From Welwitschia mirabilis (lineage: Eukaryota): DNA of 48,502 nt. Under the pieces are notes generated by a model that ran no database searches, was not told where the DNA came from, and was given only the letters and a program-made list of their open reading frames with translations. The DNA is taken from positions 12,303,674-12,352,175 of the forward strand of contig JBOZIK010000001.1 in assembly GCA_051453625.1 (NCBI GenBank), given 5' to 3'. A program made the translations under genes and the position numbers. Positions within the stretch are counted from its first letter, which is position 1; every line of letters begins with the position of its first letter. Below are positions 13,911-43,424 of the stretch, piece by piece.

Positions 13911-14097
13911 AATAATTCAATTGCTAAGGTAACTTCTACATAGAAGGTTATAGTTTTGAATCTTTAGATGTTCTACTTAGCACCAAAATTTTTTGTAAGG
14001 TTCTAAGCATAATTAATCACTTATTTGGGTGATCATCATGGTTGTGCTCCCAAGAAGAGGTATGATTACTAAAAGTTTCAAGTTGAACATTGTCCCC
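13911..14097 (+). mobile_element. Copy of ~180-bp tRNA-headed SINE-like repeat
   Basis: Shares body motifs ATCATGGTTGTGCT...AGGTATGATTACTAAAAGTTT(C/T)AAGTTGAACAT with the copies at 21549-22366 and 42372. Confidence 0.65.
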
Positions 14098-15714
14098 TTA
14101 AAGGTTCTGTATGTCGTGTGTAAGATTCATTTGATCATATGAACATTTTTATAAAATAAAATTTTAAAATATTTACATTTAGTAAATTATGATTCTCATA
14201 GAATGAAAAGAGAAAATTTAATTCTCTTTTGTAACAAAAGGTAATGTGTTATACTCCATAATTTAATCTTTAACATAAAAATTTGTATTCTTAATATTTA
14301 ATCATTTTTACTTTCTTTTATTTATCTTAATGTCATAAATGATTCTGATATGAAGGGAGTAGTAGGGCTAAGCAACTTCCTCACCTATCTAAAGAGCTTT
14401 AGTAATGTGGAAGAGATTCCTATACAAACACAAGTAAGTGAAGGGTTGTAATTCTTCATTTTACATCACATCCTTAATTTCTACATTATTCTATAGCCTT
14501 TTTTGTCTTTGGATAAAATGCAAAACTTTATTAACCTAAAAACTCAAGTAGTACATCAAAGCAAAAGTTCATCACATTAAGTAGATTGGAGAAAGGATGG
14601 ATAAAGGAAAGATAACCTTAAGAGGCTTTCCAAGCATTTTAATATAATGAATATTAATTTCACACACTTAAATCGAGCTATGTGAGAACCTAATGATAGT
14701 TTCACTTAATAAGTACATATAAATGAGGTAAGAGAAGGGATACAAAAAGTAGATATTCATCAAAATTAGGATTTAATTGAATAAAGTGGATCAGTTGAAT
14801 TTGTAACAGATAGTTCTTATCATGTACTTATGTGTCATCATTACTGTATTTACTAAGCATCTTACTACCTATTTTATCACCTTATATTTTGCCATCCTCC
14901 GTTGCCAAATCATGATTATCTTATGATGACTCGTCAAGAAGGGTTTTCTAGAAAAGGCTATTTAAGATTTAATTTATGCTCGAGTCCTAATTTTTCTCTA
15001 GAAGCTTAATTGTAAAGGAGTGAAATAGGATCTTCAAGTCACGTTCAACACCCCCTCCCTTTACTTACTACTTAGTAAAAATAACGATTTAAAGTGAAAA
15101 AAGGTTTATACAAAACCAACTAGCTTTGAACATCAACAAGTACACATGGAGTTCTATAAATTTGTTCAAGTGTCCCTTTAGCATGGTGAACTACTTTTAG
15201 ACAAGAGTACAATATTGTTTGAAGGGCTTAGAAAACTCATTTTTAGAGTAGTGTCCTCTTAATCTCTCAAGCATCACACTCATCAGACAATAAATTTGGC
15301 TTTAAGAGATCTAGCTTTAGTAACTTCTAATTTCATACTCTTCTGGGTTAGAACTAATAATATCTACTATACATATATCTTAATGTCATAAATCCATGAT
15401 TTTCTTCATCATATTTATTAACAAGTTATTCAAAAACATCGTGAATCTATCCTTTGACCTTAACAAATTTTATTTAATTTGGTGAAAATATAAGCAAACG
15501 ATGTATTGGCGATATAGTGCTAGTCTTAAGATAAGTAAATGGCATCTAATAAAATTGTAAACTATTGTAATAACTAGTGTTGAAAGTGGTGTGAGGAGTG
15601 GAGAGGGAATTGATATTAAAATAGTATTTAGGATTAGGTTTAAGAAGGAAAGTATAATTAAGTGGCTAACATTAGGGAAAAATAAAAAATAAATGATAGA
15701 GAAGAGAGAAATTT

Positions 15715-18700: not shown

Positions 18701-20022
18701 GATTAGGGGAAGAGGAGTTATAATTTTCCCTTCTTTGGATTCTAATTCCAATGGAGCATTTACAATGAAAAAAATCTAAAGAATAAAGTGTCTTAGACTT
18801 GGTAAGGAAAGGAAGGGGATAAAAGAGAATTCGATGGAAGAAAATTCAAGAGGATTAGTAGGCAATAGGAGTTTAGAAGCAAACATTAATTTTTAGAATT
18901 AGCTAAAATTTCTAGGCTGAGGTGATTTGTTTTCACATCTATGTGTTAAAGGATATTAGATATAACTTTTAAATTGTTTTTTTATTTTTCTTTATTTTCT
19001 TTCTTTTTTTAATATTTCCCCTAAGATACACCTTGATGGATCCTTGTTTTATTTTTTCTTTTTGTTTGACTTACTTATAGTTTTTTTTCATGTTTTATTT
19101 TATTTGATATGATATTTGTTAAAATCTACATGTATATCTAAAATAACCTTTTCAACCACAGTGGTAACATTGACATAAAACATACTTAAAAGGTTTTATA
19201 CCCTAGGAAATTTTAACTTTTTTTTCCTTTTTGGTTTTCAAAGACATTGTTTGAGAATTGAACTTGCAATCAAAAATCCACAAAAGCATTATTATACTAG
19301 TAGGATGTTTCTTCAGAGACAAAGTGTTAACTTTTATTTTTTAGTTTTGAAAATATCCATATTTATGTAAATACAAATCTAAGTTGCAACGATTCTAGTG
19401 CCATGGTTTAATTTTATAATCCTTTAAAAGCACTTGCACTATGTTATATGATTCTAGATTGAGAATTTCTGGAGTTGGATTATGATTTAAAATAAACATG
19501 ATTTTTTGTTAAATAATTTCCTCTTCCATAATGAATGGCCCTTATTCAATAATGGCTAAACCTTGTCTACTAAAAGAATATGGAGTAGTTGAAAGAACAA
19601 TGATTAATAAAAACAAAATGTAACTTACCATTTTAAAGTAGAATAACTTTATATGAATTTTGAATGTTTTAGATCTGATCACATTAACCCCTAACCTTAT
19701 CGATGCAAGCGAAACCTTTAATTGTGAAAAATTTGCTAATAAGACTATTCTAATAGCAATACTAAACTCATTCCTCATAAGGTTTTAAAATATTAATGAT
19801 TAATATCAACATCTTTTTCATGCAACAATCAAACGTTTATTGATTTACTTTTTTCCATTATGCTTCCATACCCTACTTTGTTGTTAAGTAGGAATCAACC
19901 TTAAAGCTTGAATTTAGTAGAAATCTAATATAGAATAGAAAAATTCTATAGGATATCATTGACATCAAGAATCAAAATCCCATGAAAAGATGAAAAACCT
20001 CACTTAGGAGGTTCACCCTAAA
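15715..20022 (-). mobile_element. Decayed L1-clade LINE (ORF1 + ORF2 endonuclease/RT), boundaries approximate
   Basis: Minus-strand motifs in correct order: ORF1 NGKLHFVF / PYSFSRQGLAIIE*GPF (DUF4283-like) and zinc knuckle CYHCG*KGYFRYTC (19169-19128); ORF2 start MIISWNYKGL (18490-18461); FIDRCIV (17989-17969); FDHHSIFL (17918-17895, cf. SDH.P); KLDRIKSFN (17059-17033, cf. KLDMEKAFD); RIR*G (cf. GIRQG); FIDD (16793-16782, cf. FADD); T-rich tract near 15715. Confidence 0.75.
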
Positions 20023-21070
20023 GAGATGATTTGTTTTTTACATCTGTGTGTTGAAAGAGAGAACCTTGGCAGATCCTTTTTTTTTGGGTTTGACTTACTT
20101 ATAGTTATTTTTTCATGTTTTATTTCATTTAATATAATATTAGTTAAAATCTACATGTATATGTAATATGACCTTCTTAACCATAGTGATAACATGGAAT
20201 TAAAGCATCCTTAAAATGGATTTTGAAAGGTTCTATACCCTAGGCAGTGTTAACTTTTTTTTTCTCTTTTTTGTTTTGAAAGACATTATTTGAAAATTGA
20301 GCTTACAATAAAAAAACTATAGAAGCACTACTATACTATTAAGATGTTTCTTCCGAGACAAAGTATTAACTTTTTAAATTTTTTTTTAAAGTTTTGAAAA
20401 CATCCATATTTATGTAAACACAAATTTGGGTTGCAACCATCATGGTCTCATGATTTAATTTACACTTGCACTATTGCACCATGTTGTATGATTCCAAATT
20501 GAGAATTTAGAGTTGGATTTATGATTTGAAACAAACATAGATTGTTTTTTCAAAAGACAATTTCCTCTTCCATAATGAACTACCTTTATTCAATAATGGC
20601 TAAACCTTGTCTATTAAAAGAGTATGGATTAGTTGAAAGAACAATGATTCATAAAAACAAAATGTAATATACCATTTTAAATTAGAATAACTTTATATGA
20701 ATTTTGAATCTTCTAGATCTGATCACATTAATCCCTAACCTTAGCAATGTAAGTGCAACATTTAATTGTGAGAAATTTGTTGATAAGACTATTCTAATAG
20801 CAATACTAAACTCATTCCTTATAAGGTTTTAAAAGATTAATTATTGTAATATTAGCATCTTTTTGCATGCAAGTATCAAACTTCTATTGATCTATTATTT
20901 TTCAATTATTCTTCCATATCCTACTTTGTTTTTAAGTAGGAATCAACCTTAAAACTTGAATTTAGTAGAAATCCGATATAGCATAGTAAAATTATCTAGG
21001 ATATCATTGACACAATCAAATAAAATTCCCTGAAAAGATGAAAAATCTCAATCATGAGGTTTACCCTAAA
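20023..21070 (-). mobile_element. Tandem duplicate of the 5'/ORF1 region of the adjacent LINE (copy of 18919-20022)
   Basis: Collinear similarity over ~1.05 kb from GAG(G/A)TGATTTGTTTTT to GAGGTT(C/T)ACCCTAAA; knuckle reads CYHYG*EGHITYTC (20194-20153). Confidence 0.85.
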
Positions 21071-21548
21071 GTTTAGATGGCTCTAAAATTGCTCTAAAAC
21101 CCTTGTTCTTATAATAGGCTTCAATCCTATAAGATTTTTTTAATTACAAGTAGGCTTGCTCTTTTTTGTTCTTCCAGTTTCTTTTTTTCTATTTTATCTT
21201 TTAGACAATGGACATAACTAAAGTGACTTTTCATTATTTAACATTAATACTTTGGAATAATGTATGTTAAAAACATTTACTTTTTTAAACAAAGGGTACT
21301 AAGGTCTCCTAATAAGAATTTTGCTTATTATAATGTATAGCATTATGTTACATAAAAAAATAAATATAAATAAATAATATTTAACCTGGTTACACTATTG
21401 TTTAGGCTTTCATATTTCTATTCTCTAAACCAAGTTATTATATACTAACTAGTTTATTATTATAAAATGATATATGAATATTAGTAATGAACATGATATA
21501 TGAATATTAGTAATTAAGTGGATCTTAATATGAGCTATGTCACCAACA

Positions 21549-22366
21549 AGGTGGTAGTCCAATTGGTAACACTCATCCTCAATTTAGGAGGTCATAGGTT
21601 TAAGCCTTTAGATGCCTTGCTTGGTATAGTATAGGGCCCAGGCATAATTACATCATTTGTTTGGATGATCATGGTTGTACTTCCGAGGGAGGGTATGATT
21701 ACTAAACATTTTGAGTTCAACATGCTCCACTTAATTAGAGCCATGCCATTAGTATGATAGTTCAACTAGTGATACAGTTGTCCCTTATTTAGGAGGTTAT
21801 GGGTTTGAACATTTGAATGTCTTCCTTGGAATACTATAAGTCCCTAGAAATAATTAAAGTGGTTGTATTTTCAAAAAGAGGTATAGTTAGTAAAAGTTTT
21901 GAGTTTCACATCCCCCATAATATGAACCATGCTAATATGATGGTAGTTCAAATAGTCAAACACTTGTCTTCCATATAGGAAGTTGAGGGTTTAAAACATT
22001 GGGCATTTTGCTTGGAACACTATGAGGCCTTAAACATAAGTAGAATGATTGCACTTCTAAATGAAGGTATGGTTTAAAAGTTTTGAGTTTGGAATCCACT
22101 AGTTAATATAAGTGTATTTAACTTTGAAAATTAAAAACACAACATAATTATATTTATTTTGTTAAATTGTTTATGATTTATAGGATGATAGGCCTTTTAG
22201 TTGGACACTCACCTTCCCTTTGGGAGTCCATGGGTTTAAACCTACAGATGTTTTGGTTAGCACACTCTGAGGCTTACGCTTAACAAAAATTTTTGTTTGA
22301 GTGATTATGGTGTTTGTACTTCTTAGCGAGGTATAATCACTAGAAATTTTGAGTTTGACATTTCCC
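21549..22366 (+). mobile_element. Cluster of four tRNA-headed SINE-like units (21549-21728, 21752-21916, 21936-22097 head-to-tail; 22183-22366)
   Basis: Units start with A-box-like sequence (TAGTCCAATTGG at 21555-21566; TAGTTCAACTAG; TAGTTCAAATAG), B-box-like GGTTT(A/G)A ~42 bp later (21597-21606), and end in TTTTGAGTT(C/T)..CAT.CC-like sequence. Confidence 0.7.
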
Positions 22367-24063: not shown

Positions 24064-25650
24064 ATGACTGCAATTATGGAATTTAGCTTTGCCTGCTGGT
24101 TGGGTCTTTCCCTTGTTCTTCTCGTGGTTTTGCTGAGACTTCTGCAGAATTCCGTAGGGTCAATCCTCCACAGATGGATTGATGGCTGGGTGGTGCGTTG
24201 GAGGCCGTGCAAGCTTTTTAGGGTTCCAGAATTCTATGGCTCGGATGGGTTTCAGCAGCAGAACGATCTTTACAGAAAGGTGAGCATGTATGTGGGCACT
24301 CTGGGGGACACAACAGAGACCCCTTACGTCAATTTGATCAGCCCGGAGATGTCGAAGGAGATTCTGGTGTCTCTGGAGGCGGGGCAGAGTGTTGAGGACG
24401 TGTTTCTGGGCGTGAGACTGCGGTGGATCCATGAAGTTGCAGAGACGGATGGAAGGAGCATGAGGAGCTTCGTTTTGAAGGTAGGAAAGAAGGATAAGGT
24501 TGGACTGCTGAGGCCTTATTTGGAGCACATTGAGGCTGTTGCAGACGACGCAGAGCAGAGATGGAGGCAGCTCAAATTGTTTGTGAATGATTTTTGTGAC
24601 AACTTTTCGAGGGAGCGATGGGCTTCTGTGCCGTTCACTCACCCTGCAACTTTTGAGAGCCTTGCACTTGATTCTGAGCTCAAAAGCGGGATCAAGGCTG
24701 ATATCGATGCCTCTCTCAAGGGCAGGAATTATTATCACAGGGTTGGGAAGCCATGGAAACGGGGCTATTTGTTCCACGGGCCTGCCGGCACCGGCAAGTC
24801 CAGCATGATTGCAGCCATTGCCGCTTACTTGCACTACGATGTTTATGATCTGGACTTGTCGAAGATTCGAGACTGTTCGGATATGAGAATGGCTCTGATG
24901 CAGACCCACAGAAGATCAATCATTGTTGTTCAAGACATTGATTGCTCTGTGGAGTTTGTCAGCAAGAGTGGTGGCTCCGTTGATGGCGAGGAGCTGGGAA
25001 GCGATGGCACCGGTGACATTTGCAGGGTCTCTGTTTCCGCTCTGCTGAATTTCATGGAAGGTCTCTGGTCATGCTGTGGGGAGGAAAGAATTCTTATTTT
25101 TACTGCAAATTCCAAAGAGAAGTTGGACCAGTCTCTGTTCAAAGCAGGAAGAATAGACACGCAATTTTTCTTTCCTCCCTGCAATTTCTCAGCCTTCAAA
25201 GCGATGGCACACAATTACCTGTCACTGAGGGATCACAAGCATTTCACTCTCGTGGAAGAGGCCTTCAGGGCTCCTGGTGTTTGCATGACTCCGGCAGAGG
25301 TTGCAGACGTCCTGTGGAGCCACAAAGGCTCTCCCAGTCGTGCGCTCAGGGCCCTCGTCAGTGCTCTCCATCAGAGCGCAGGCAGGGATGTCCAGAGCCC
25401 TGTTGGGTCCCCCCAGACCCCACACCACTCTAATAACCACCAGGAGACTGAAAGCAAGGTTTCCAGTAAGGGCATGTTGCAGGGCAGAGGAGGCAAAAGC
25501 CAGGCGATTACTGTGAAGAGATCAAGGGGCAATCCAGAGAATTCAGTTATTGATATGAACCAAATGAGGAAGCTGCAGAATCTGTTCAGGCTAAACAACA
25601 GGAAAAGCAAGAAAGCATGGGGCTTTCAGATGGTAGATGACGATTGCTGA
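24064..25650 (+). CDS. BCS1-clade plant AAA-ATPase, At2g46620-like (N-terminal TM helix, AAA-associated domain, AAA domain), intronless, 528 aa
   Basis: Long ORF; hydrophobic N-terminus; FRVPEF..Q.N.LYRKV..Y; FTHPATFESLALD; YYHRVGKPWKRGYLFHGPAGTGKSSMIAAIA.YL.YDVYDLDLS (Walker A 24778-24801); LLNF.EGLWSCCGEERI.IFT.N; GRID; MTPAEV; C-terminal MRKLQNLFRL. First ATG 24064 (alternative 24076). Confidence 0.95.
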   Translation: MTAIMEFSFACWLGLSLVLLVVLLRLLQNSVGSILHRWIDGWVVRWRPCKLFRVPEFYGSDGFQQQNDLYRKVSMYVGTLGDTTETPYVNLISPEMSKEILVSLEAGQSVEDVFLGVRLRWIHEVAETDGRSMRSFVLKVGKKDKVGLLRPYLEHIEAVADDAEQRWRQLKLFVNDFCDNFSRERWASVPFTHPATFESLALDSELKSGIKADIDASLKGRNYYHRVGKPWKRGYLFHGPAGTGKSSMIAAIAAYLHYDVYDLDLSKIRDCSDMRMALMQTHRRSIIVVQDIDCSVEFVSKSGGSVDGEELGSDGTGDICRVSVSALLNFMEGLWSCCGEERILIFTANSKEKLDQSLFKAGRIDTQFFFPPCNFSAFKAMAHNYLSLRDHKHFTLVEEAFRAPGVCMTPAEVADVLWSHKGSPSRALRALVSALHQSAGRDVQSPVGSPQTPHHSNNHQETESKVSSKGMLQGRGGKSQAITVKRSRGNPENSVIDMNQMRKLQNLFRLNNRKSKKAWGFQMVDDDC

Positions 25651-32880: not shown

Positions 32881-33903
32881 TGGGTAATCCATGTTATCTT
32901 ATGATTATAACTAGAGGGGTTCAATAATTGTCATAACATCTAGGTTTCTTAAAAATTTGATTATGCTTAATATTATATTATAGAATGTTTAAAAAGGAAA
33001 ATATCATGTCTTGCCTCTTTAGTCATCTTATTTGATCTTTTACTGTCAAAAATTTATAATAATTTTTTCATCTATTTAACTTTTCAATAGATTATTTTCA
33101 AGGACTTTGTGTGTCATGTCCTTTACTCTTGAATGATTTGCATTCTTTTTTTAAGTCATAAAACTTTAATCTTTTCAAGTTACTTGATGTGCATTCCCTC
33201 TTGTTATAAATCTTATAAATACATTTAGTGTGATTAATAACTTGTGATTGTATAATTTACTTAGATTCATCTCCTTTTTATTCATTCTTTAAGCCATTTA
33301 AAATTTCCTTAAAGTTGGAAATCCATCTAGTTAGACTATTGAAGAATAAATTGACAACTTTAAGTGATATAATTCTTACTAATAAGGAATTGCTAAGGAC
33401 TTAGCCTTATCTATTTCATAATAAAACCTTTTATTGCTCATCACCATACCACATAACAATATCCATGCAATTCATTTTCCAAATAAACATAGAATCTTTA
33501 TATAAGTATAGCCTTTAAGGTCCTTGGAAACTATGCACATGTTTCAAAAACCTTTATAGAATATCATTAAATTCTTAAGGTAACCCATAAAAATTCTCTA
33601 GTAATATGCTTTAACATATCATAAGTAGTTTTCCTAATTATCTAGAAAATTAGAAGTTTAAAGGACTTAAGCTAAAGGTAAAAGGGATCTTAGACTTTGC
33701 TTTTACAAAGATTAAAATATTAAAGAATGTATTAGATAAATTTGTGCTATTTGGTACAGTTAAAAAAAAAGGAAAAAAACAAAAAGTAAGAAGTAGAGGA
33801 ACTAATTAATTGAAGAAAATCTTTAAGTTAGAAAGGAAAACTACAAAAATGAAATATGACATTGCAAAAAAAAAAAAAAAAAAAAAATAAAAAAAAAATT
33901 AAT

Positions 33904-34003
33904 NNNNNNNNNNNNNNNNNNNNNNNNNNNNNNNNNNNNNNNNNNNNNNNNNNNNNNNNNNNNNNNNNNNNNNNNNNNNNNNNNNNNNNNNNNNNNNNNN
34001 NNN
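33904..34003. other. Assembly gap (100 N)
   Basis: Run of N adjoining a tandem repeat. Confidence 1.
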
Positions 34004-34231
34004 CCCAATACATTTGGGCTGCATACAGATCTGGACGTCCCGTTTTGCAGGTCGGACGTCCCAATATATTAGGACCGCATTTAGAGCCGAACGTCCCATT
34101 TAGTAGGCTGGACGTCCCCATACATTTGGACCGCGTCCAGAGCCGGACGTCCCAGTTAGCAGGTCGGACGTTCCCATACATTTGGACCGCGTCTAGAGCC
34201 GGACGTCTCAGTCTGAGAGGCGGACGTCCCG
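34004..34231. repeat. GC-rich 56-bp tandem repeat (about 4 visible copies), two GGACGTCC palindromes per unit
   Basis: Unit starts at 34004, 34060, 34116, 34172 (CCC(A/C)ATACATTTGGACCGCGT.TAGAGCCGGACGTCCCAGTTAGCAGGTCGGACGT). Confidence 0.95.
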
Positions 34232-34596
34232 TTTGGCATAGCTTCTAATTTTTCACATGAAACGATGTGCTGATACCAGTCCTTTGCTCATCATTGAAAC
34301 CAATTATCTCTACAGACAAGTCAACATTTAGTAATGGTTAATGTGGACATTGCAAAAAAAAAAAAAAAAAAAAAGGAAGATAAAGGTAATGTTATCATAA
34401 ACCTTTTTTTTTTAAGTTCGTGAGACTGTCAAGACTAATTTGCAATCATTATATATATCATTCCTATTTGTATAATTGAAAGGTATCTTTTAGTTAGAAG
34501 AATTTATAGTTAATGAATTTGTGAAGACATGCATTGTGTAGTCATATGCTTGATTGTTTATCATAGGTATATTCTAATGGGAACATAGTATTATTA

Positions 34597-34997
34597 GAAG
34601 GTGTTTAACTTGAAACTTTTAGTGATTATACCTACCACTCAGAGTATAACTCCATGACAAACAAATGACTAAATTATACCTAGGGCCTTAGAGTTTGCTA
34701 AGTACAATATCTAAAGGTTTAAAACCAATAGCGCCTAAATGAAAGATGAGTGTTCCACTAATTAGACTAGCCGCTCATGAACGGAATACAATATTATTAT
34801 TTAAGACTTTTAGTAACCATACCTTCTTGAGAAGAGAAACCACCACAATTACCAAACTTAATGATTTTAAGTATAGATAGAGCCATGATTAAATTATGCC
34901 AAGGCCTTACAGTTTGACAAGTATAACATCTAAAGGTTCAAAACCAATAGCTCCCAAATAAAAGATGAGTGTTTCACCTATTAAACTATCCTTTCAT
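34597..34997 (-). mobile_element. Two tandem SINE-like units (34597-34778, ~34800-34997); third unit continues at 36693-36866
   Basis: Repeated ACTTTTAGT(G/A)A(T/C)(T/C)ATACC...ATCTAAAGGTT(T/C)AAAACCAATAGC...AAAGATGAGTGTT; reverse complement of the 21549 unit. Confidence 0.7.
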
Positions 34998-35022
34998 TAG
35001 TAAGAATACAACATTATTATTT

Positions 35023-36675
35023 TTTGAGAAATGATAAATAGATATATGATATTAGCCTAAAAGGTAAGGAACTATACAACATAACTTAAAAGTTATTTTT
35101 TTAAAGCATGGTAAAATCTCTCTGATAGTCAAAGGCCCAAATATTAGCATATAATTTTGTTTAAAAAGTAGCATACCCCAACAAGTTTACAACAAAACGA
35201 TATTCAGAAGACTCTAAAGGTGGGAAATTTTCTAGCCAATTCCTAGGGCTCTGTAATTTTAGGAAATTCATTGAAAGAAGAGTTGAGATTGCTTATCATC
35301 TTTGATGTCCTCCTTTGTCTCCTTTTCTATTTTACCTTTTTTGGTATTCATTCTAATTTTTTTGTCTGTCTGTCCAGTTTTTCAAGTTCTACTAGCTATT
35401 AGTGCATTTAAAACATGCTCCTTTGCATGATTATTATTATCTCTTTCCTCCTATCCCTTTTTCATTTCTGATGGCTATCCTCATTTGGAAGAGCGAACTA
35501 ACATGTTGTAGATGTGCTGTGTGTTCTACTTTTCCTATTTGGCTATTTCCTGTTCATTTCATATTTTATTTTCTTACATTTGTTCTAGTTCTTCCTTTGA
35601 TAGAATATCATATGTATTTGATTAGGAGATTGGATTATTATTTGGGATTAAATATGATCTCTTTTTGCAATCTTTTCTTTTGATTTCTTACTAATCATTT
35701 TTTTCCACTTTCTCATTTTTCTTGCATTTCTCAATCATATGCCCATTTTCACCAGATTTTAAACATTACAATGGAATATTTTCAATTTCTAGATTAAAGA
35801 GTTATTTCCCCCCACATAGTATCCAAAATTAGTTTTGTTGCCTTGAAGCTATCTAGTTTCATTTAAAAACATATTCTAGCCATTACCATTTTTGCCATAA
35901 AATCTATATTCCTATCAAGTTTAACAAACTCTTCTAGCATGTCACCAAGTTGTTTAATGAAATCTAACTGCCATATTTTTAGGTGAAGGTTTTAGATATG
36001 AATCCAAACCTAAATCTACTTAAAAATGCTAAGTTTATCCAGAATGAAAGGGGACCATTTGGTTCGAGCTAAACTCTACATCCAAAAAAATAGGGTCCTT
36101 CAATTAAAACCTTATTCATTTCTTCTTCTGACTCAAAAATAAAATGTAATAATCCATCTCTAAGAGAGATTATCTTGCAACTTGCAAGAAACTTCTTTGC
36201 ACATAATGAACAGGAGCCCTCCTAAGGATTGGAATTTGCCAATGAAGCTATTTTTGAAACGAGCCTCTAGATGCTTAAAGTAGATAATGGACACCTTTTC
36301 ATGGATGATAGCTCCTTTACACTTGAAATCAAAATCTAAGTTAGGGAAACCTTGAGGTTTGCTTCTCCTTATTGAATCCGACTAGGATTTAGTACTCAAT
36401 GATTCTGATATCATTGGAGAACAAAGTCTCTCTTCTGAAAGTGCATTAAAGACATGCTACAATAAGGGTAAAAGGCCCTGAAAACTAAAAAATACCTTCA
36501 TAAAGCCTCTAAGAAAGTGCTTGCATGAAGAAGTCGCAAAAGAGGCAATGCTTCAGCGCATGGAAAATGTGCTAGAGGTGAAACTGCCCCTTTGTCTTCT
36601 AGTGTGTACCATGAAATCCAAACCCTAGCTTCTGTGCCTCGCTTTCCTCTACCTCTATCTACTAATGATTCTTCC
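35023..36675 (-). mobile_element. ORF1-only L1 derivative (half-L1/HAL1-like), copy A, pseudogenised
   Basis: ATG 36414; EARFKNSFIGKF, ISLRDGLLHFIFESEEEMNKVLIEGPYFF (DUF4283-like), KQLGDMLEEFVKLD...MARIC, knuckle CLKSGENGHMIEKC; T-run at the 3' side; flanked by ATACAA(C/T)ATTATTATTT at 35006-35022 and 36676-36692; no ORF2 motifs seen. Confidence 0.8.
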
Positions 36676-36692
36676 ATACAATATTATTATTT

Positions 36693-36866
36693 AAAAATTT
36701 TAGTGACTATGCCTTCTTGAGAAGAGAAACCACAACAATTACCCAAATGAATGATTTTAATTATAGATAGAGCGTTATAGTGTGCTAAGCATGAATTTTA
36801 AATGTTCAAATTCATAATCTCTTTAGCGAAAAATGAAATGCTCCATTAGTTGGACTAATACTCCGT
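36693..36866 (-). mobile_element. SINE-like unit displaced from the 34597-34997 array by the ORF1-only element
   Basis: TTTTAGTGACTATGCCTTCTTGAGAAGAGAAACCAC..CAATTACC...ATGATTTTAA.TATAGATAGAGC matches 34808-34883. Confidence 0.7.
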
Positions 36867-39818
36867 TAGGAAATATAATGATCAACAACTATAACAATTT
36901 CTTTTTTTTAAATTAAATAAACTTTTTAGAATTGAACTTATAACCATAAACTCATGGGAATACTCCTCTACCATTAACTTGCTTTCATGAATGTTGCATT
37001 GATAATGAATATGAGCTTATTAGAAGAGGACCCAACATTCAAAATAAAAATCACTCTCTTTGGAATGTAATAAGATATTACTTTCTTTTCAAGCTATTAA
37101 AGTTGAGGAATGTAGCTATCTTTAAATATAAAATGATTTATTCTTTTCTTTTTTCTTTCAAACTTAATGTAATACCATCTCTCTTTGGTTTTAATCCCTT
37201 TGATAATGTTGTCAAAGAAAATTTATAAGTTTCTGATCTATGTAAACAATGTTTAAATTCTCTGAAGTTTGACAACTTTGTTCTATTTAGAATAGCCTAA
37301 TGATGTATCTTCAATGTTTTTGTTTCTGAAGATGGTTAATAAAGTTATCTTTCCAAACCAAAAAATATAATGATTATATATAATAAGTTACTAAATTATT
37401 ATTAAAGAAACTATTTTTTATATATCTAAAACTTAATTAGAAATTTATTGATGAAAAATAAAAGTCTTTAAATATCTTTATGAAAGAGAAGGGATGTTTT
37501 TCAAAAAATTATAATTCATACCATTTGATCTATATATATTAGGAAATATTAATGGAAGAACTTGTCTTTATTGCACTTTATCTTTAATACAAATCCTTAT
37601 CATAATCTAGCATTCAAAGAGATACCTAAGTAATTTTATTATCTTTAATAAATAGGTTTATATGTTAAACCCACTTCATAATATTAGGGTTACCTTATTG
37701 ATATCTAAATTTGTCTAAAGAGTATCCTTATAAGAATATTGTTTATAATAAAACCCTTAAAATAAATAAAAAATCATTTAATTGGATGATTGTGATGGTC
37801 ATACTCCTATCGAAGGTAAGGACACAAAAAGTTTTAAGTTCAACATCCTTCCATTTATAGTTTTCATAAAGAGAATATTTTGTGGACTTAAGGCTTAATT
37901 AGAGATAGTAAAAAAGAGTTTTGATAAGAGATGGATTTCTAATACTATTTAATAAATATGTTTTAATTTGATGAGTAAAATAGATCACTAACACTAAAAT
38001 TGAATAAACCTTACATAAGAAACTAAGAACATTAAACCAAAAGGATAACTTACATTTAAAAGGAAGACATGTTTGTGTGATTAGTTAAGAGTGATAAATG
38101 ATGTAGGACTATATAAGAACATTCTTAACCTTTAGTGATGATTATCATATTATTTCTGAAGAAATTTCATATTTTATAATTTTAAAGATAATTTTCTCAG
38201 AAGTATGATCAAAATCAAATAAGACTTGGGTTGTGAAAGTTAACAAAGTTCATTCACATGTAAAGAGATCAATAATTTCACTACTAGAATGTTCGTTAGA
38301 GGAGTCTATTCCTAAAAATAAAATTTTAAAGTATTAAAAAAAGTATTCAAAATTAGTCTATAGTGGTATTATATTCACATCCTAATATTTTTTAGATAAG
38401 GAGGTAGTTAGAAAAGTCATGTGTTCTTTTAGAAAAAATGGTGTATGTTTTGTGATAAGTCTAGAGATTACCACAAATTCAAATGTTCTATTAACAAGTG
38501 ACTAGAAGAAGTATTCCACTTCATAGGTGTTTAATACTTCTAAATGAATGCTTATTCTTTATTAATAAGGAAGGAATTAAAATTTATCTTATATATTTTC
38601 AAATGTCATATAGTGCCTCTATAGAAGAAATGGAAAAGAGAACTTTAGTTAAGAGTATGTATTTCATCATAACATTTCTTATTTTGCATCTAATAGTAGA
38701 TGTCATAAAATGTTAAGATTAATAAGAGGTGGATATAACTAAGTTATGATGAAGTAACTATAGAAATTACAAAGGTTATCAATTTGTACCACCAACTACT
38801 ATTTTTGTAATATGCTTTACAGTACTCACTTAGTTATGTATTTTGTGTGATAAACCATAGAGTTCCTAAATGAAGTTTATGAAGCTTAATATTTTAGTAT
38901 TCTACTGTATTCATACATTTTCAAGTTATCTCCTAGTGCATAATAACATGTTTTTGAAGTAAGATAAAATTTTAAAGAAAGAAGAGTAGTCCATGGATTT
39001 ATTAACATGTGTAGTCAATTCAACTTTGTGTAAAAGAATCATTTTTATACTATTGTTTATACTCTTCTATTTTCTAGGTATAAGACTTCTTGAATTCGTT
39101 AGCCTTATAATTTCACTTTTTAAAACACACTATATAATAGTTGATGAGAATATATTATTAGAATCCTTATTGACGGTAGGACATGACAAAATTGTATAAG
39201 TTAAACTAGAAGAAAGCAATGTGGATTATATCTAAGAAGGTAAAGAGTGAAATATTAAGAGATCATCTCCATCATAGAAAACACACTTTTGAGGTTTTTG
39301 ATAAATATAGATAATGGAGAAATATTTGCTTAATAAAGCATAAAATGGATGTTAGAAAGTTGCAAAAACAAAATAGGGATTTCATGAAGAATCTTAAGAG
39401 AGTAATTTTGTGATAGCAATAAGAAGTTGAAAAAAGTATAATAGTAGTTCAAAAATCTTAAAACCAAAGTTAAAGGATTATTTCTTCATTATTTATAAAA
39501 AGTTTTATGTTGATCATATTACTAACTACAACCTCTTAGTGGGTTAGTACTTGATAGAAGAAATTTGAAAATTAAAAAAAAAATTTTTTATTTATGTAAT
39601 AATAATGATGAACTGAAGAGTAAAATAAAAGTCTTACCTAGAAAACTTGGTTTCATTTATGACAAAGAACAAAAATGTAGAATTTGAATTGATAAAAGCA
39701 CTAAGTAAGCTTCATAAAAAATGAGATGCTCATTAGCCTATAAAATATGAGTTCAAAAGCTTGAAAAGTAAATTGTAGATTTAAAGATACCTTCACTATA
39801 ATTGATAGGAATAAATGG

Positions 39819-41476
39819 TTTTTTTTTTTAAAGAAACAATAGACTAATATATTATATTATCATAAAAGTCAAGAAAAGATACAACATAGCTTAAAAGCTA
39901 TATTTTTAAGCATATTAGAAATCCCTCTAATAATCAGAGCCCTAAATATCAGCATCTAATTTTATCAAAAAAATGGCATATCCCAATGGGTTTATAATGA
40001 AATGGTATTTACAAAACTCCAAAAGTGGGAATTTTTTTGGCCAATCTGAAGGCCTCTATGATTTCAAAAAATTCATTGGAAGGAGAGTTGAGATTGCTTA
40101 CCATCTTGGATCTCCTACTTTGTCTCCCTTTTAATTTTACCTTTTTTGGTATTCATTCTAATTTTTCTATATAGTTTTTAAGTTTTGCTAGCTGCTGATG
40201 CATCTGAAATATGCTCCTCTACATGGTTATCATTCTCTCTTTTCTCCTGACCCATTTTCATTTCTGATAGCTATTCTAATTTGGAAGATGGAATTAACAT
40301 GTCATAGACGTGCTCTGTGTGTTGGATTTCCTATTTGGCTATTTCTCATTCATTTTATTTTTGTTTTCCTACATCTATTTTAGTTCTTCCTCTAAAAAAA
40401 AATCATATTCATTTGCTTGGAAGATTGGATCATTATTTGGGATTGAGGCTAGTTTCTTTTTGTGATCTTTCTTCTTAACTTCTTGCTAGTCATTTTTTCC
40501 CCTTTCTCATTTTTCTTGCATTTCTCCACTATATGCCCATTTTCATCACACTTCGAACATTGTAACAATATATTTTTGATTTCTAAGTTAAAAATCGATT
40601 CCCCCCACACAATATCTAAGATTAGTTTTTACTTTAAAGCTATTTGGTTTCATGTAAATACATATTCTAACTGTTGCTATTTTTGTCATTAAATCTGTAT
40701 TCTTGTCAAGTTTAACAAACTATCCCAACATATCACCAAATTACTTCAAGAAATCTGGGTGTCATACTTCCAGGTGAGGGTTTGAGATATGAATCCAAAC
40801 CGAGATCTTTTCAAAAATGGTGGGCTTTTCAAGAATGAAAGGGGATCATTTGGTTAGGGCTAAACCTTTATGGCCAAAAAAATAGGGCCTTCTTGCTAAA
40901 ACCTTATTCATTTCTTCTTAAAACTAAACAATGAAATGTAATAATCTATATCTAAGAGGGATTACCTTATAACTTGTAGGGAACTTATTATTGCACTATA
41001 GACATACTTTTTAAATGGACAGGAGCCATCCTAAGGATTAGAATTTGCCCATGATGCTATTTCTGAAACGAGCCTCCAGATGCTTAAAGTAGTAAATGGA
41101 CATCTTTGCATGGATGATATTTTCTTCATGCTTAAAACCAGACTATAAGTTAGGAAAGCTTTGAGGTTTGCTTTTCCTAATGAATTCGCATAAGATTTAG
41201 TACCCCATGATTCTATTGCCATTGAAGAATAGAGTCTTGCTTCTAAAAGCACATTGAAAACACATTACATCAAGGGCAAAAAAACCCTCAAAACTGAAAA
41301 CTACCTCCAGAAAGCCTCCAAGAAAGCCCTTGCACTGAGAAGCCACTAAAGAGGCAATGCTCTAACGCATGGAAGACATGCCAGAGGTGAAACTGCCCCT
41401 CTGTTTGCTACCACGTATCCTGAAATCCAAGCCCTAGCTTTACTGCTCCACTCCCTTCCCCCTGTTCTACCATTGA
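39819..41476 (-). mobile_element. ORF1-only L1 derivative (half-L1/HAL1-like), copy B, pseudogenised
   Basis: Collinear with 35023-36675 end to end; ATG 41222 (MAIESWGTKSYANS), EARFRNSIMGKF, intact CX2CX4HX4C knuckle CSKCDENGHIVEKC (40559-40518); T11 at 39819-39829 (poly-A tail on minus strand). Confidence 0.8.
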
Positions 41477-42371
41477 CAAATCTTTTTAATAGTTTATCTT
41501 TAATTTTCTTCTATCATTGATGCACTTATGATTACGCTAATACATTAATGATCTTGAATATTCTTGAAATGGTTTCAAGTTTATGAAAGATTTTGTCAAA
41601 TAATTTTCAAAGGGAAAACCACTTCTATTATCCAAGTTACAAGAAAGGTAAAAAAAGCAATGCAAATAAGAATAAAAGAGATGGGCCTATATACTAATAT
41701 GTTAAGTTGTTGAATTCTCTGATGGAAGAATGCAATAATTCATATTTAGTAAATATATGAGATATACATATTTCGTAGGCTATAGTTAATGAACATTTAA
41801 TGAGAATAATATTTTGCTTAAAAAATGTTTTAAATTACTTTATTTTTCATTTTATATTTACTAGAATTTATAAAAATGTAATAATATTAATTTTGAGTTT
41901 CCTTTATGCTACTTAGGGAATAACTTTAAGTGATATGGTGATGAACAAAGTTGAGGAACAAAAATTTTTTTTTTTTTTGTTTTACAATAGAACTTGTAAG
42001 CAAATTTTTAAATAATAAAGTACTGCATATTAGGTTGTTGGTTTTTTATACAAGAAACTTATGGTTTCATGAAGGATTGTCTTAATCCTATGTATAATGG
42101 AAAAGGTCATGATCCTATAATGATCACTAAGTAATATAAAGATAAATAAAATATGTAATGATAAATCTTTAGGATTAACTATAATAAATAAAATTAATAA
42201 TAATTAAAAACTATGATGAAACTAAAATAGAAGGGAAAAGGGAAAAAAACAAATGATACTACATTAGATTTCAATTTAGCAAACAAATGGATTATAATGT
42301 ATAATAAAAATAAAGTATGATTTTATGAATATTAAAATTAATTTCAACAATTCATTAGTATTCTGGGCCAA

Positions 42372-42556
42372 TGAGGTGGTAGCTCAAGTGGTGGAATGCT
42401 TGTCCTCCATTCTAAACTTGTGAGTTTAAATATTTAAATGGTGTACTTGGTATACTATAAGAACCTAGGTATAATTAAAAATTTGTAAAGATGATCATGG
42501 TGGCTTTACTTAAAAGAGAATTTATAATTACTGTAAGTTTTAAGTTTAACAACCCG
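42372..42556 (+). mobile_element. SINE-like copy with best-preserved A box
   Basis: TAGCTCAAGTGG at 42380-42391 fits the Pol III A box TRGCNNARYGG; body GATGATCATGGT...AATTACTGTAAGTTTTAAGTTTAACA. Confidence 0.65.
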
Positions 42557-43159
42557 TTTCTCCCAATTATTGTTAATGAACATTCAATGAAGAGAATATT
42601 TTTCTAAAAATATAAATGTTCTATGTTAATTTGTTTTCTATTTGTATTTACTAACTATAAAAAAAATTATTTTTGAGTTTCCTTTATGCTCATTAGGGAA
42701 AAACTTTAAGTGATACAGTGATGAACAAAGTTGAACATTATAATAATCTTTTCCTTTTTGTTTCACTATAGTACTTGTAATAAATTTTTAAATAATAAAG
42801 TATTGCATATCAAGTTATTATACTTTTTTAGAAGGAACTTATGATTGCATGAAGGCTTCTCCTAGTCCTAGGTATAATGGATAAGGTCATGATCCTATAA
42901 TAATCACAAAATAATATAAAGATAAATAAAATTTTTAATTCTAAATCTTTAGGATTAACTAGTAATAAACAATAAACAAAATCAATAATAATAAAAAATT
43001 CTCATGAATCTAAAATAGAAGGAAAAAGGGGAAAAAAAATCAAATAATGATATATGAGTTTCAATATAGTAAACAAATGGACTATAATGTATAATGACAA
43101 GAAAAGTATGATTTTGTGAATGTTGAAATTAATCCCTAAAATTAATTAGTATTTTAGGC

Positions 43160-43350
43160 TAATGCAATAGTAGCTCAACTGGTGGAACAATTATCCTCCA
43201 TTCTAAAGCTTATGGCTTCAAATATTTTAATGACCTACTTGGAACACTATAGGAACCTAAGCATAATTTCAAATTTGTGAAGGTGATCATGGTGGCTTTA
43301 CTTGAATGCAAGCTCATAATTATTATAAGTTTCAAGTTTGACATTCGATT
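43160..43350 (+). mobile_element. SINE-like copy in second unit of the 787-bp duplication
   Basis: TAGCTCAACTGG A-box-like head, GGCTTCAAAT B-box-like, GGTGATCATGGTGG...AAGTTTCAAGTTTGACAT body. Confidence 0.65.
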
Positions 43351-43424
43351 TCCTCCAGTTAGCATTTTACATGATAGATTATACAAATTCATTCATGAAA
43401 AATTAATGTAATGTCTTTTGCTAG

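What the first reader, a model, noticed from the sequence alone, without database searches (positions are those of the whole stretch)
35023..41476. Two co-terminal ~1.65-kb ORF1-only LINE derivatives (half-L1/HAL1-like non-autonomous retroposon family)
Seen: 35023-36675 and 39819-41476 are collinear along their whole length, have about the same length and ends, different flanks, a T-run (minus-strand poly-A) at the 3' end and a GC-richer 5' leader; both encode only an L1 ORF1 (DUF4283-like block plus CX2CX4HX4C knuckle) and I see no endonuclease or RT motif. Copy A has a 17-bp TSD. Established: ordinary L1 copies are 5'-truncated and so keep ORF2's end, not ORF1; ORF1-only 'half-L1' (HAL1) elements are described mainly from mammals. 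Inference: this is a discrete family that was retrotransposed in trans by an autonomous L1 while keeping its own RNA-binding ORF1p.
Basis: partly seen in the sequence, partly recalled or inferred. Interest (0 to 1): 0.75.

Follow-up and report, generated by a model that had tools for sequence, protein, structure and literature searches.

The report
Plant half-LINE family lacking copying enzyme
Two old, broken copies of an abundant plant jumping gene carry LINE-1's first gene but only a probable stub of its enzyme gene, so the family likely spread by borrowing the copying enzyme of full-length relatives, a design described in mammals that my searches did not find described for plants.

Summary
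Observation largely confirmed. The two minus-strand copies are 77% identical end to end with unrelated flanks. Both carry a broken plant L1 ORF1 (DUF4283) and end in poly(A). Copy A's 17-bp target-site duplication is real: a neighbouring tandem unit shows the empty site.

Public runs show a repeat family: about 80-160 times flank depth, 29-30 contigs per run ending at the same poly(A) with unlike flanks, and third copies collinear from ORF1 to poly(A).

Against a simple picture: this tail is a minority among ORF1 relatives. A second, transcribed class leaves it at ~35165, and I could not follow where it goes. No partner or intact copy was found, and A versus B shows no purifying selection.

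Verdict: most likely a HAL1-like non-autonomous L1 family in a gymnosperm-like plant (~0.68). The design is known (HAL1, TRE5-A.2), and this scan noted it before in animals and fungi. A plant case was not found in print.

The parts
35023..36675 (-). Copy A of the short L1 derivative, 1653 bp, dead
   Evidence: bounded by the TSD
35006..35022 (.). TSD of copy A, 3' side
   Evidence: 16 of 17 match to 36676-36692; 0 of 20000 in null
36676..36692 (.). TSD of copy A, 5' side; on the element strand a T-run is followed by the A-rich TSD, as at L1 endonuclease nick sites (consensus recalled)
34786..34802 (.). Empty-site paralogue: the same 17-mer, present once, in the neighbouring ~220-bp tandem unit
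36415..36675 (-). 5' leader of A (GC 42%), presumed internal Pol II promoter (inferred)
   Evidence: no Rfam match
35268..36414 (-). Broken ORF1 of A (~380 codons): DUF4283 at ~35869-36185, damaged knuckle at 35724-35765
35165..35271 (-). Probable decayed ORF2 start of A (~35 codons), ATG overlapping the ORF1 stop, with a 2-nt deletion shared with B
   Evidence: motif recalled, Pfam negative
35023..35164 (-). AT-rich 3' tail of A (GC 24%) and poly(A) remnant
39819..41479 (-). Copy B, ~1660 bp, dead; TSD not significant
41223..41479 (-). 5' leader of B (GC 46%)
40073..41222 (-). Broken ORF1 of B: DUF4283 at ~40657-40968, complete CX2CX4HX4C knuckle at 40518-40559
39970..40076 (-). Probable decayed ORF2 start of B
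39819..39969 (-). 3' tail and 11-nt poly(A) of B

Best explanation
A and B are dead copies of a dispersed ~1.65-kb plant L1 derivative that carries ORF1, a probable decayed stub of ORF2 and a short tail with poly(A), and that likely multiplied as a family of its own by using the endonuclease/reverse transcriptase of a full-length L1 in trans. Shown: the shared anatomy, many independent insertion sites ending at one poly(A) position, a true target-site duplication, and no EN/RT domain hit. Inferred: an ancestral L1 lost ORF2 beyond about codon 35 and gained or kept a short non-coding tail; the leader drove Pol II transcription; ORF1p was made in cis and coated the RNA; a partner's ORF2p primed on the poly(A) at a T/A-rich nick. 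These two copies have since decayed neutrally.
For: Repeat depth over the element is about 84x (X1) and 158x (X2) the median of unique flank bins, and falls at the element's edges (summed contig depth, not a copy number). Contigs leave the stretch at A's poly(A) with a T-run and mutually unlike flanks: 30 in X3 and 29 in X4, agreement 0.45/0.49, median loose length 255/233. 75 (X1) and 83 (X2) contigs leave B at 39847 with a T-run plus A-like 3' end. Third-copy contigs about 17-19% different run collinear from the stub or ORF1 end into the tail: records 1, 5, 10; record 10 (16 pieces shown per call, of many thousands). Depth does not rise towards the 3' end, as it would for ordinary 5'-truncated L1s. 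A and B share a 2-nt deletion at the ORF2 start, so they descend from a template whose ORF2 was already dead. The stub varies by indels among relatives (loose ends at 35206). The tail is AT-richer than ORF1 (24% against 32%) and has no Pfam hit in 3 frames of either copy. TSD with empty-site control. Plant L1s are proposed to recognise poly(A) only (PMC3747384, passages). Pol II transcripts need ORF1p as well as ORF2p in a human assay (PMC2666806, abstract).
Against: In raw DNA reads (X19, a capture library, about 30% read) the ORF1 end is about 23x deeper than the A-type tail and about 4x deeper than the stub, so most relatives of this ORF1 end do not carry this tail at 80% likeness. A second class leaves A at 35165-35169: 37 contigs in X3, 17 in X4, and 10, 13 and 5 RNA reads in X13, X14, X16. 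Only 30 nt of its continuation were visible, so it may be a full-length L1. No intact ORF1 was found. A-versus-B changes are flat over codon positions: 82/71/75, p=0.67; ORF1 core 43/39/51, p=0.43. The 5' leader is about 10x shallower than ORF1, so a shared genome-wide 5' end is not shown. B has no significant TSD. No autonomous partner was identified. The ORF2-stub call rests on a recalled motif.
Confidence: 0.68

Rival explanations
1. The short copies are by-products of an autonomous L1: its RNA was repeatedly polyadenylated early, about 240 nt into ORF2, and copied by its own or a sister's ORF2p. There would be no self-propagating short family.
For: The elements do begin ORF2 right after ORF1. 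This route also gives co-terminal poly(A) ends and TSDs. ORF1-end relatives outnumber the tail. Premature L1 polyadenylation is known in mammals (recalled, no call).
Against: A and B share a frameshift at the ORF2 start that other relatives lack. The tail is AT-rich and gives no domain hit. The other abundant class diverges at 35165 instead of running on through the tail and past the poly(A) site. Among the rows shown, loose ends at the poly(A) are heterogeneous flank, not a shared continuation.
Confidence: 0.18
2. They are remains of full-length L1 insertions that lost ORF2 after insertion, or 3'-broken fragments, and only look co-terminal.
For: Both copies are old (23% apart) and the region is full of decayed repeats. 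B lacks a clear TSD.
Against: A's TSD encloses exactly the short form. Dozens of contigs share one 3' end, and third copies have the same ORF1-to-tail join. Independent deletions would not share a breakpoint.
Confidence: 0.08
3. B and A arose from one insertion by local segmental or tandem duplication; this window has several tandem duplications.
For: The copies are 4.8 kb apart in the same orientation; other tandem duplications lie at 19053-21071 and 41781-43361.
Against: Similarity stops at both element ends (flanks 51-57%). B lacks A's flanking repeat and TSD. The family is dispersed.
Confidence: 0.02

Closest known systems
HAL1 (half-L1) of placental mammals and marsupials (Smit 1999; Bao and Jurka 2010, not held; seen through passages of PMC5753468, PMC5786205, PMC3627910, PMC4161310)
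   Same: L1-derived, keeps ORF1, lacks ORF2; presumed mobilised in trans; such forms arose independently several times.
   Different: Plant-type ORF1 (DUF4283 plus CCHC knuckle), whereas mammalian L1 ORF1 is the Transposase_22 type (bioRxiv 10.1101/050880, passage), so an independent origin. Keeps a probable ORF2 stub. Long-lived ORF1 coding capacity, reported for guinea-pig HAL1 (PMC3627910, passage), is not shown here.
ORF1-present bipartite non-autonomous LINEs: HeT-A (Jockey clade), Ag-Sponge (CR1 clade) (PMC5786205, passage)
   Same: One ORF1-like protein plus a 3' end; depend on a partner's ORF2.
   Different: Other clades, animal hosts. Here the tail could not be traced to a partner's 3' end.
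TRE5-A.2 of Dictyostelium discoideum (PMC5633606, passage)
   Same: Non-LTR variant lacking ORF2 sequence, mobilised in trans by the ORF2p of TRE5-A.1 (shown experimentally there).
   Different: Targets tRNA genes and has a known co-resident partner; this family inserts at AT-rich sites and its partner is unknown.
Autonomous plant L1 LINEs such as poplar Celine (PMC11288735, passages)
   Same: DUF4283 ORF1, overlapping ORF1/ORF2 layout, short 3' UTR, poly(A), TSDs of 10-30 bp.
   Different: About 6 kb with EN and RT, and copies mostly 5'-truncated; this family is 1.65 kb and keeps the 5' part.

Membership tests
ORF1-only non-autonomous LINE (HAL1-like class) | ORF1 of LINE origin present | tested here: met
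   DUF4283 in both copies; knuckle complete in B
ORF1-only non-autonomous LINE (HAL1-like class) | No EN/RT-coding ORF2 | tested here: met
   No EN/RT Pfam hit in 6 whole frames or 8 tail translations; only ~240 nt lie between the ORF1 stop and the poly(A); a probable ~35-codon dead stub remains
ORF1-only non-autonomous LINE (HAL1-like class) | Many independent insertions sharing one poly(A) 3' end | tested here: met
   30 and 29 contigs at 35020 with unlike flanks; 75 and 83 at 39847
ORF1-only non-autonomous LINE (HAL1-like class) | Target-site duplications around the short form | tested here: met
   1 of 2 copies: A 16/17 with empty-site control; B not significant
ORF1-only non-autonomous LINE (HAL1-like class) | Shared full-length 5' end across the family | tested here: inconclusive
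ORF1-only non-autonomous LINE (HAL1-like class) | ORF1 intact or under purifying selection in source copies | tested here: inconclusive
   Both copies broken; flat codon-position spectrum; two dead copies have little power; no intact relative found
ORF1-only non-autonomous LINE (HAL1-like class) | 3' part derived from the autonomous partner's 3' end (bipartite structure) | tested here: inconclusive
   No shown row of reads joins the tail to another upstream sequence at ~35165 (24 of 768 loose-end rows shown); no partner sequence in hand
ORF1-only non-autonomous LINE (HAL1-like class) | Mobilisation in trans by a partner ORF2p | not testable with these tools
   Inferred from TSD, poly(A) and lack of ORF2
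HAL1 in the strict sense (mammalian lineages) | Descent from mammalian L1 with its ORF1 type | tested here: not met
   Plant DUF4283 ORF1 in a plant genome
Ordinary 5'-truncated plant L1 copy | Keeps the 3' end of ORF2; depth highest at the 3' end | tested here: not met
   ORF1 kept, no RT; depth not higher at the tail

The most novel reading that the evidence does not exclude
The first seed-plant half-L1 radiation: a plant L1 lineage gave rise to more than one ORF1-only family that break off at the same point about 35 codons into ORF2 and carry different tails, one of them still transcribed. ORF1-only parasites would then make up most of this LINE lineage in the genome, and plant ORF1p would be needed in cis while ORF2p is freely borrowed.
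Probability: 0.25. Interest if true: 0.62.

Novelty: new member of a known kind. Interest (0 to 1): 0.42.

Why it matters
It would extend the ORF1-only (HAL1-like) way of life to land plants. Published lists of non-autonomous plant elements that I saw name LARDs, TRIMs, SMARTs, MITEs and SINEs but no such class (PMC9033089, passages). It would support poly(A)-only recognition by plant L1 ORF2p and give a natural test of what the DUF4283 ORF1 protein does: if it is selected in elements without ORF2, it must act in cis on its own RNA. Such families also escape RT-based LINE surveys. The mechanism itself is not new.

Tried and rejected
No whole genome is held, so the direct BLAST-with-flanks test could not be run; public runs were laid instead.

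Protein searches for relatives of ORF1 found nothing: 0 of 249 candidates; 0 hits among 1.84 billion with a profile that kept only 112 positions; 0 of 1606 longer candidates at E<=10. These are weak blanks for decayed queries. No language-model look-alike search of ORF1 was obtained.

A 22-nt conserved motif in metagenome contigs gave 4 loci, all 4 chance matches without further similarity. Exact look-ups of the neighbouring AAA-ATPase failed.

The stub gave no Pfam hit and only chance PDB hits. A text search for the motif found nothing relevant. The shuffle test of the motif (1 and 0 of 20000) used a pattern drawn up after seeing the sequence, so it is only indicative.

Tails and leaders fold no better than shuffles (z -0.96 to 0.77). 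No Rfam match. A whole-window Pfam scan for a partner ORF2 was not obtained; a motif scan of six frames found no L1 RT or EN motif in the window. No RNA holder was listed for the stretch itself.

Segmental duplication, and a false TSD produced by the flanking tandem repeat, were considered and rejected.

Full report
OBSERVATION. The two stretches are homologous from end to end: 35001-36631 matches 39806-41440 at 77.5% over 1655 columns. By part, identity is 74% in the leader, 79-80% in ORF1, 72% in the next 103 nt and 73% in the tail, against 51% and 57% in the flanks. Both lie on the minus strand and end in a T-run on the plus strand, 6 nt in A and 11 nt in B. Pfam finds DUF4283 in both (B E=3.3e-12; A E=3e-7 and 0.0096 in two frames), a weak zf-CCHC in B only (E=0.16), and no endonuclease or RT in any of the 6 frames given. 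ORF1 runs from an ATG at 36414 (A) or 41222 (B) to a stop at 35268 or 40073, about 380 codons, broken by stops and frameshifts in both. The knuckle is complete in B; A has Ser for the second Cys.

TARGET SITE. A sits in the second unit of a ~220-bp tandem repeat. The 17-mer that flanks A on both sides (16 of 17 identical) occurs once at the same place in the first unit, which is therefore an empty-site control. None of 20000 random AT-rich windows matched as well. On the element strand the site is a T-run followed by A-rich sequence, the kind of site L1 endonucleases nick (recalled). B's best candidate, 8 of 10, is reached by 8.3% of random windows and is not evidence.

The ORF1 stop overlaps an ATG, and the next codons read I-S-stop-N-Y-R-A-L-G in A and I-F-stop-N-H-R-G-L in B. 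Other genomic copies read M-I-I-[S/F]-stop-N-C-R-G-L-G: loose-end consensus of 206 and 215 raw reads in X19 and of 31-48 contigs in X3 and X4, and likewise in X1. This looks like the first strand of a plant L1 endonuclease. I know that motif from memory only; Pfam, PDB and a text search did not confirm it. A and B both lack 2 nt right after the ATG that those relatives have, so they share a derived frameshift. The resemblance fades after about 35 codons. The remaining ~140 nt are 24% GC, with no domain hit in three frames of either copy. The anatomy is thus leader, ORF1, probable dead ORF2 stub, short tail, poly(A).

IS IT A FAMILY? No genome is held, so I laid 8 of 24 listed public runs. Summed contig depth inside B is about 84x (X1) and 158x (X2) the median of 11 flank bins and drops at the element's edges; this is no copy number. 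At A's poly(A), 30 contigs (X3) and 29 (X4) leave with a T-run and mutually unlike sequence (agreement 0.45 and 0.49; median 255 and 233 nt). In the wider lay, 75 and 83 contigs leave B at 39847 with a T-run plus an A-like end. Contigs about 17-19% different from the window, so neither A nor B, run collinear from the stub or ORF1 end into the tail: 35020-35295, 39822-40103 and 35114-35478, and 35114-35361. Depth is not higher at the 3' end than in ORF1, the opposite of a 5'-truncated L1 population. Each lay shows only its best rows (24 of 5413 and 24 of 768 loose ends; 16 pieces each), and X1 or X3 may be the window's own sample.

AGAINST A SIMPLE PICTURE. In raw DNA reads (X19, a capture library, about 30% read) depth is about 1335 at the ORF1 end, 313 in the stub and 59 in the last 84 nt, a 23-fold fall. 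Contig depth falls less. Part may be faster divergence of the tail below the 80% cut, but the A-type tail is a minority among relatives of this ORF1 end. A second class follows A to 35165-35169 and then leaves with a common sequence: 37 contigs in X3, 17 in X4, and 10, 13 and 5 RNA reads in X13, X14 and X16. RNA depth in X14 is about 14 above 35163 and nil below 35107, and no RNA read was 99% like the window in any of the 3 RNA runs laid. So the transcribed relatives are mainly this second class. Only 30 nt of its continuation are shown and I recognise no endonuclease motif in them; it may be the autonomous parent or another short family. No shown row joins the A-type tail to a different upstream sequence at that point, so the tail is not visibly shared with an abundant longer element. 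The leader is about 10x shallower than ORF1. A-versus-B substitutions are flat over codon positions (82/71/75, p=0.67) and mostly transitions (258 of 366): neutral decay, no evidence for selection on ORF1. Three protein searches found no relative.

HOST. The intact AAA-ATPase gene at 24064-25650 is At2g46620-like. Its best named hits are from Ginkgo, Cryptomeria and Wollemia at 45-49%, so the host is a plant, probably a divergent gymnosperm such as a gnetophyte (inference; a fern is not excluded). The window is 31% GC. Heavy methylation-driven C-to-T decay is described for one gnetophyte genome (PMC8275611, passages), and would explain recurrent stops at Trp and Gln codons; I therefore give the majority stop in the stub little weight.

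MECHANISM. Most likely (0.68) an ancestral plant L1 lost ORF2 beyond about codon 35, and the short form spread on its own: Pol II transcript from the leader, ORF1p made in cis, a partner's ORF2p priming on the poly(A) at a T/A-rich nick and leaving a 17-bp TSD. The products are shown; transcription, cis action of ORF1p and the partner are inferred. Plant L1s are proposed to recognise poly(A) alone (PMC3747384, passages). In a human assay Pol II transcripts need ORF1p besides ORF2p (PMC2666806, abstract), which would explain why ORF1 is kept. The main rival (0.18) is repeated early polyadenylation of an autonomous L1's RNA; the shared frameshift and the non-coding-looking tail argue against it, but only the parent's sequence can decide. 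Post-insertion deletion (0.08) and local duplication (0.02) fit badly.

KNOWN SYSTEMS. HAL1 encodes only ORF1p and arose several times in mammals (PMC5753468, passages; Bao and Jurka 2010 not held; also passages in PMC3627910 and PMC4161310). HeT-A and Ag-Sponge are parallel cases (PMC5786205, passages). Dictyostelium TRE5-A.2 lacks ORF2 and is mobilised in trans (PMC5633606, passage). DUF4283 is the main plant L1 ORF1 domain (bioRxiv 10.1101/050880, passages; PMC11288735, passages). It works like HAL1 but is not a member of the mammalian lineages. Seven searches of the open library (listings, with passages read only for the papers named) showed no plant ORF1-only LINE family, and a land-plant review names none (PMC9033089, passages). 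Repbase, Dfam, subscription papers and supplements were not seen and may hold one. This scan's own unchecked notes list the design in rays, a reptile, an octopus and mushrooms; none for this DNA or genome, and no plant ORF1-only family came up.

VERDICT. Real and more than chance. Probably a HAL1-like family in a new host group; old, with partner and selection unproven. New member of a known kind; interest 0.42.

Noticed in passing
window 35165-35169 (relatives in runs X3, X4, X13, X14, X16): A second class of relatives shares the ORF1 end and the stub, then leaves with a common different sequence; it accounts for most RNA reads in this region. Candidate parent L1 or second short family.
   Followed up: partly
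window 34665-35022 and 36676-36773; also 14007-14101, 21555-21722, 22197-22355: A ~220-bp tandem unit hosting copy A is itself a dispersed repeat (depth ~200-390), with RNA reads from relatives at 34901-34942; type unknown.
   Followed up: partly
window ~35075-35110 and ~39880-39920: Both tails fold into a hairpin at the same place, about 55-90 nt before the poly(A); whole-tail z-scores are not significant. Could be a 3' recognition signal.
   Followed up: partly
window 33861-34374: GC-rich 56-bp tandem array (34004-34230) next to a 100-N gap, bracketed by two long A-runs that are each preceded by the same short motif.
   Followed up: no
window 19053-21071 and 41781-43361: Two old head-to-tail duplications, ~1.0 kb at 83% and ~0.79 kb at 79%.
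   Followed up: no
window ~48060 (+) and ~3200 (+): Decayed Ty3-type RT motif and Copia-type RNase H motif (motifs recalled).
   Followed up: no
window 24064-25650 (+): Intact single-exon AAA-ATPase, At2g46620-like, only 45-49% identical to its best gymnosperm hits.
   Followed up: partly
window 35206 (relatives in runs X4, X19): A further variant of the stub with a different upstream segment (18 contigs, 83 reads), suggesting more subfamilies.
   Followed up: no
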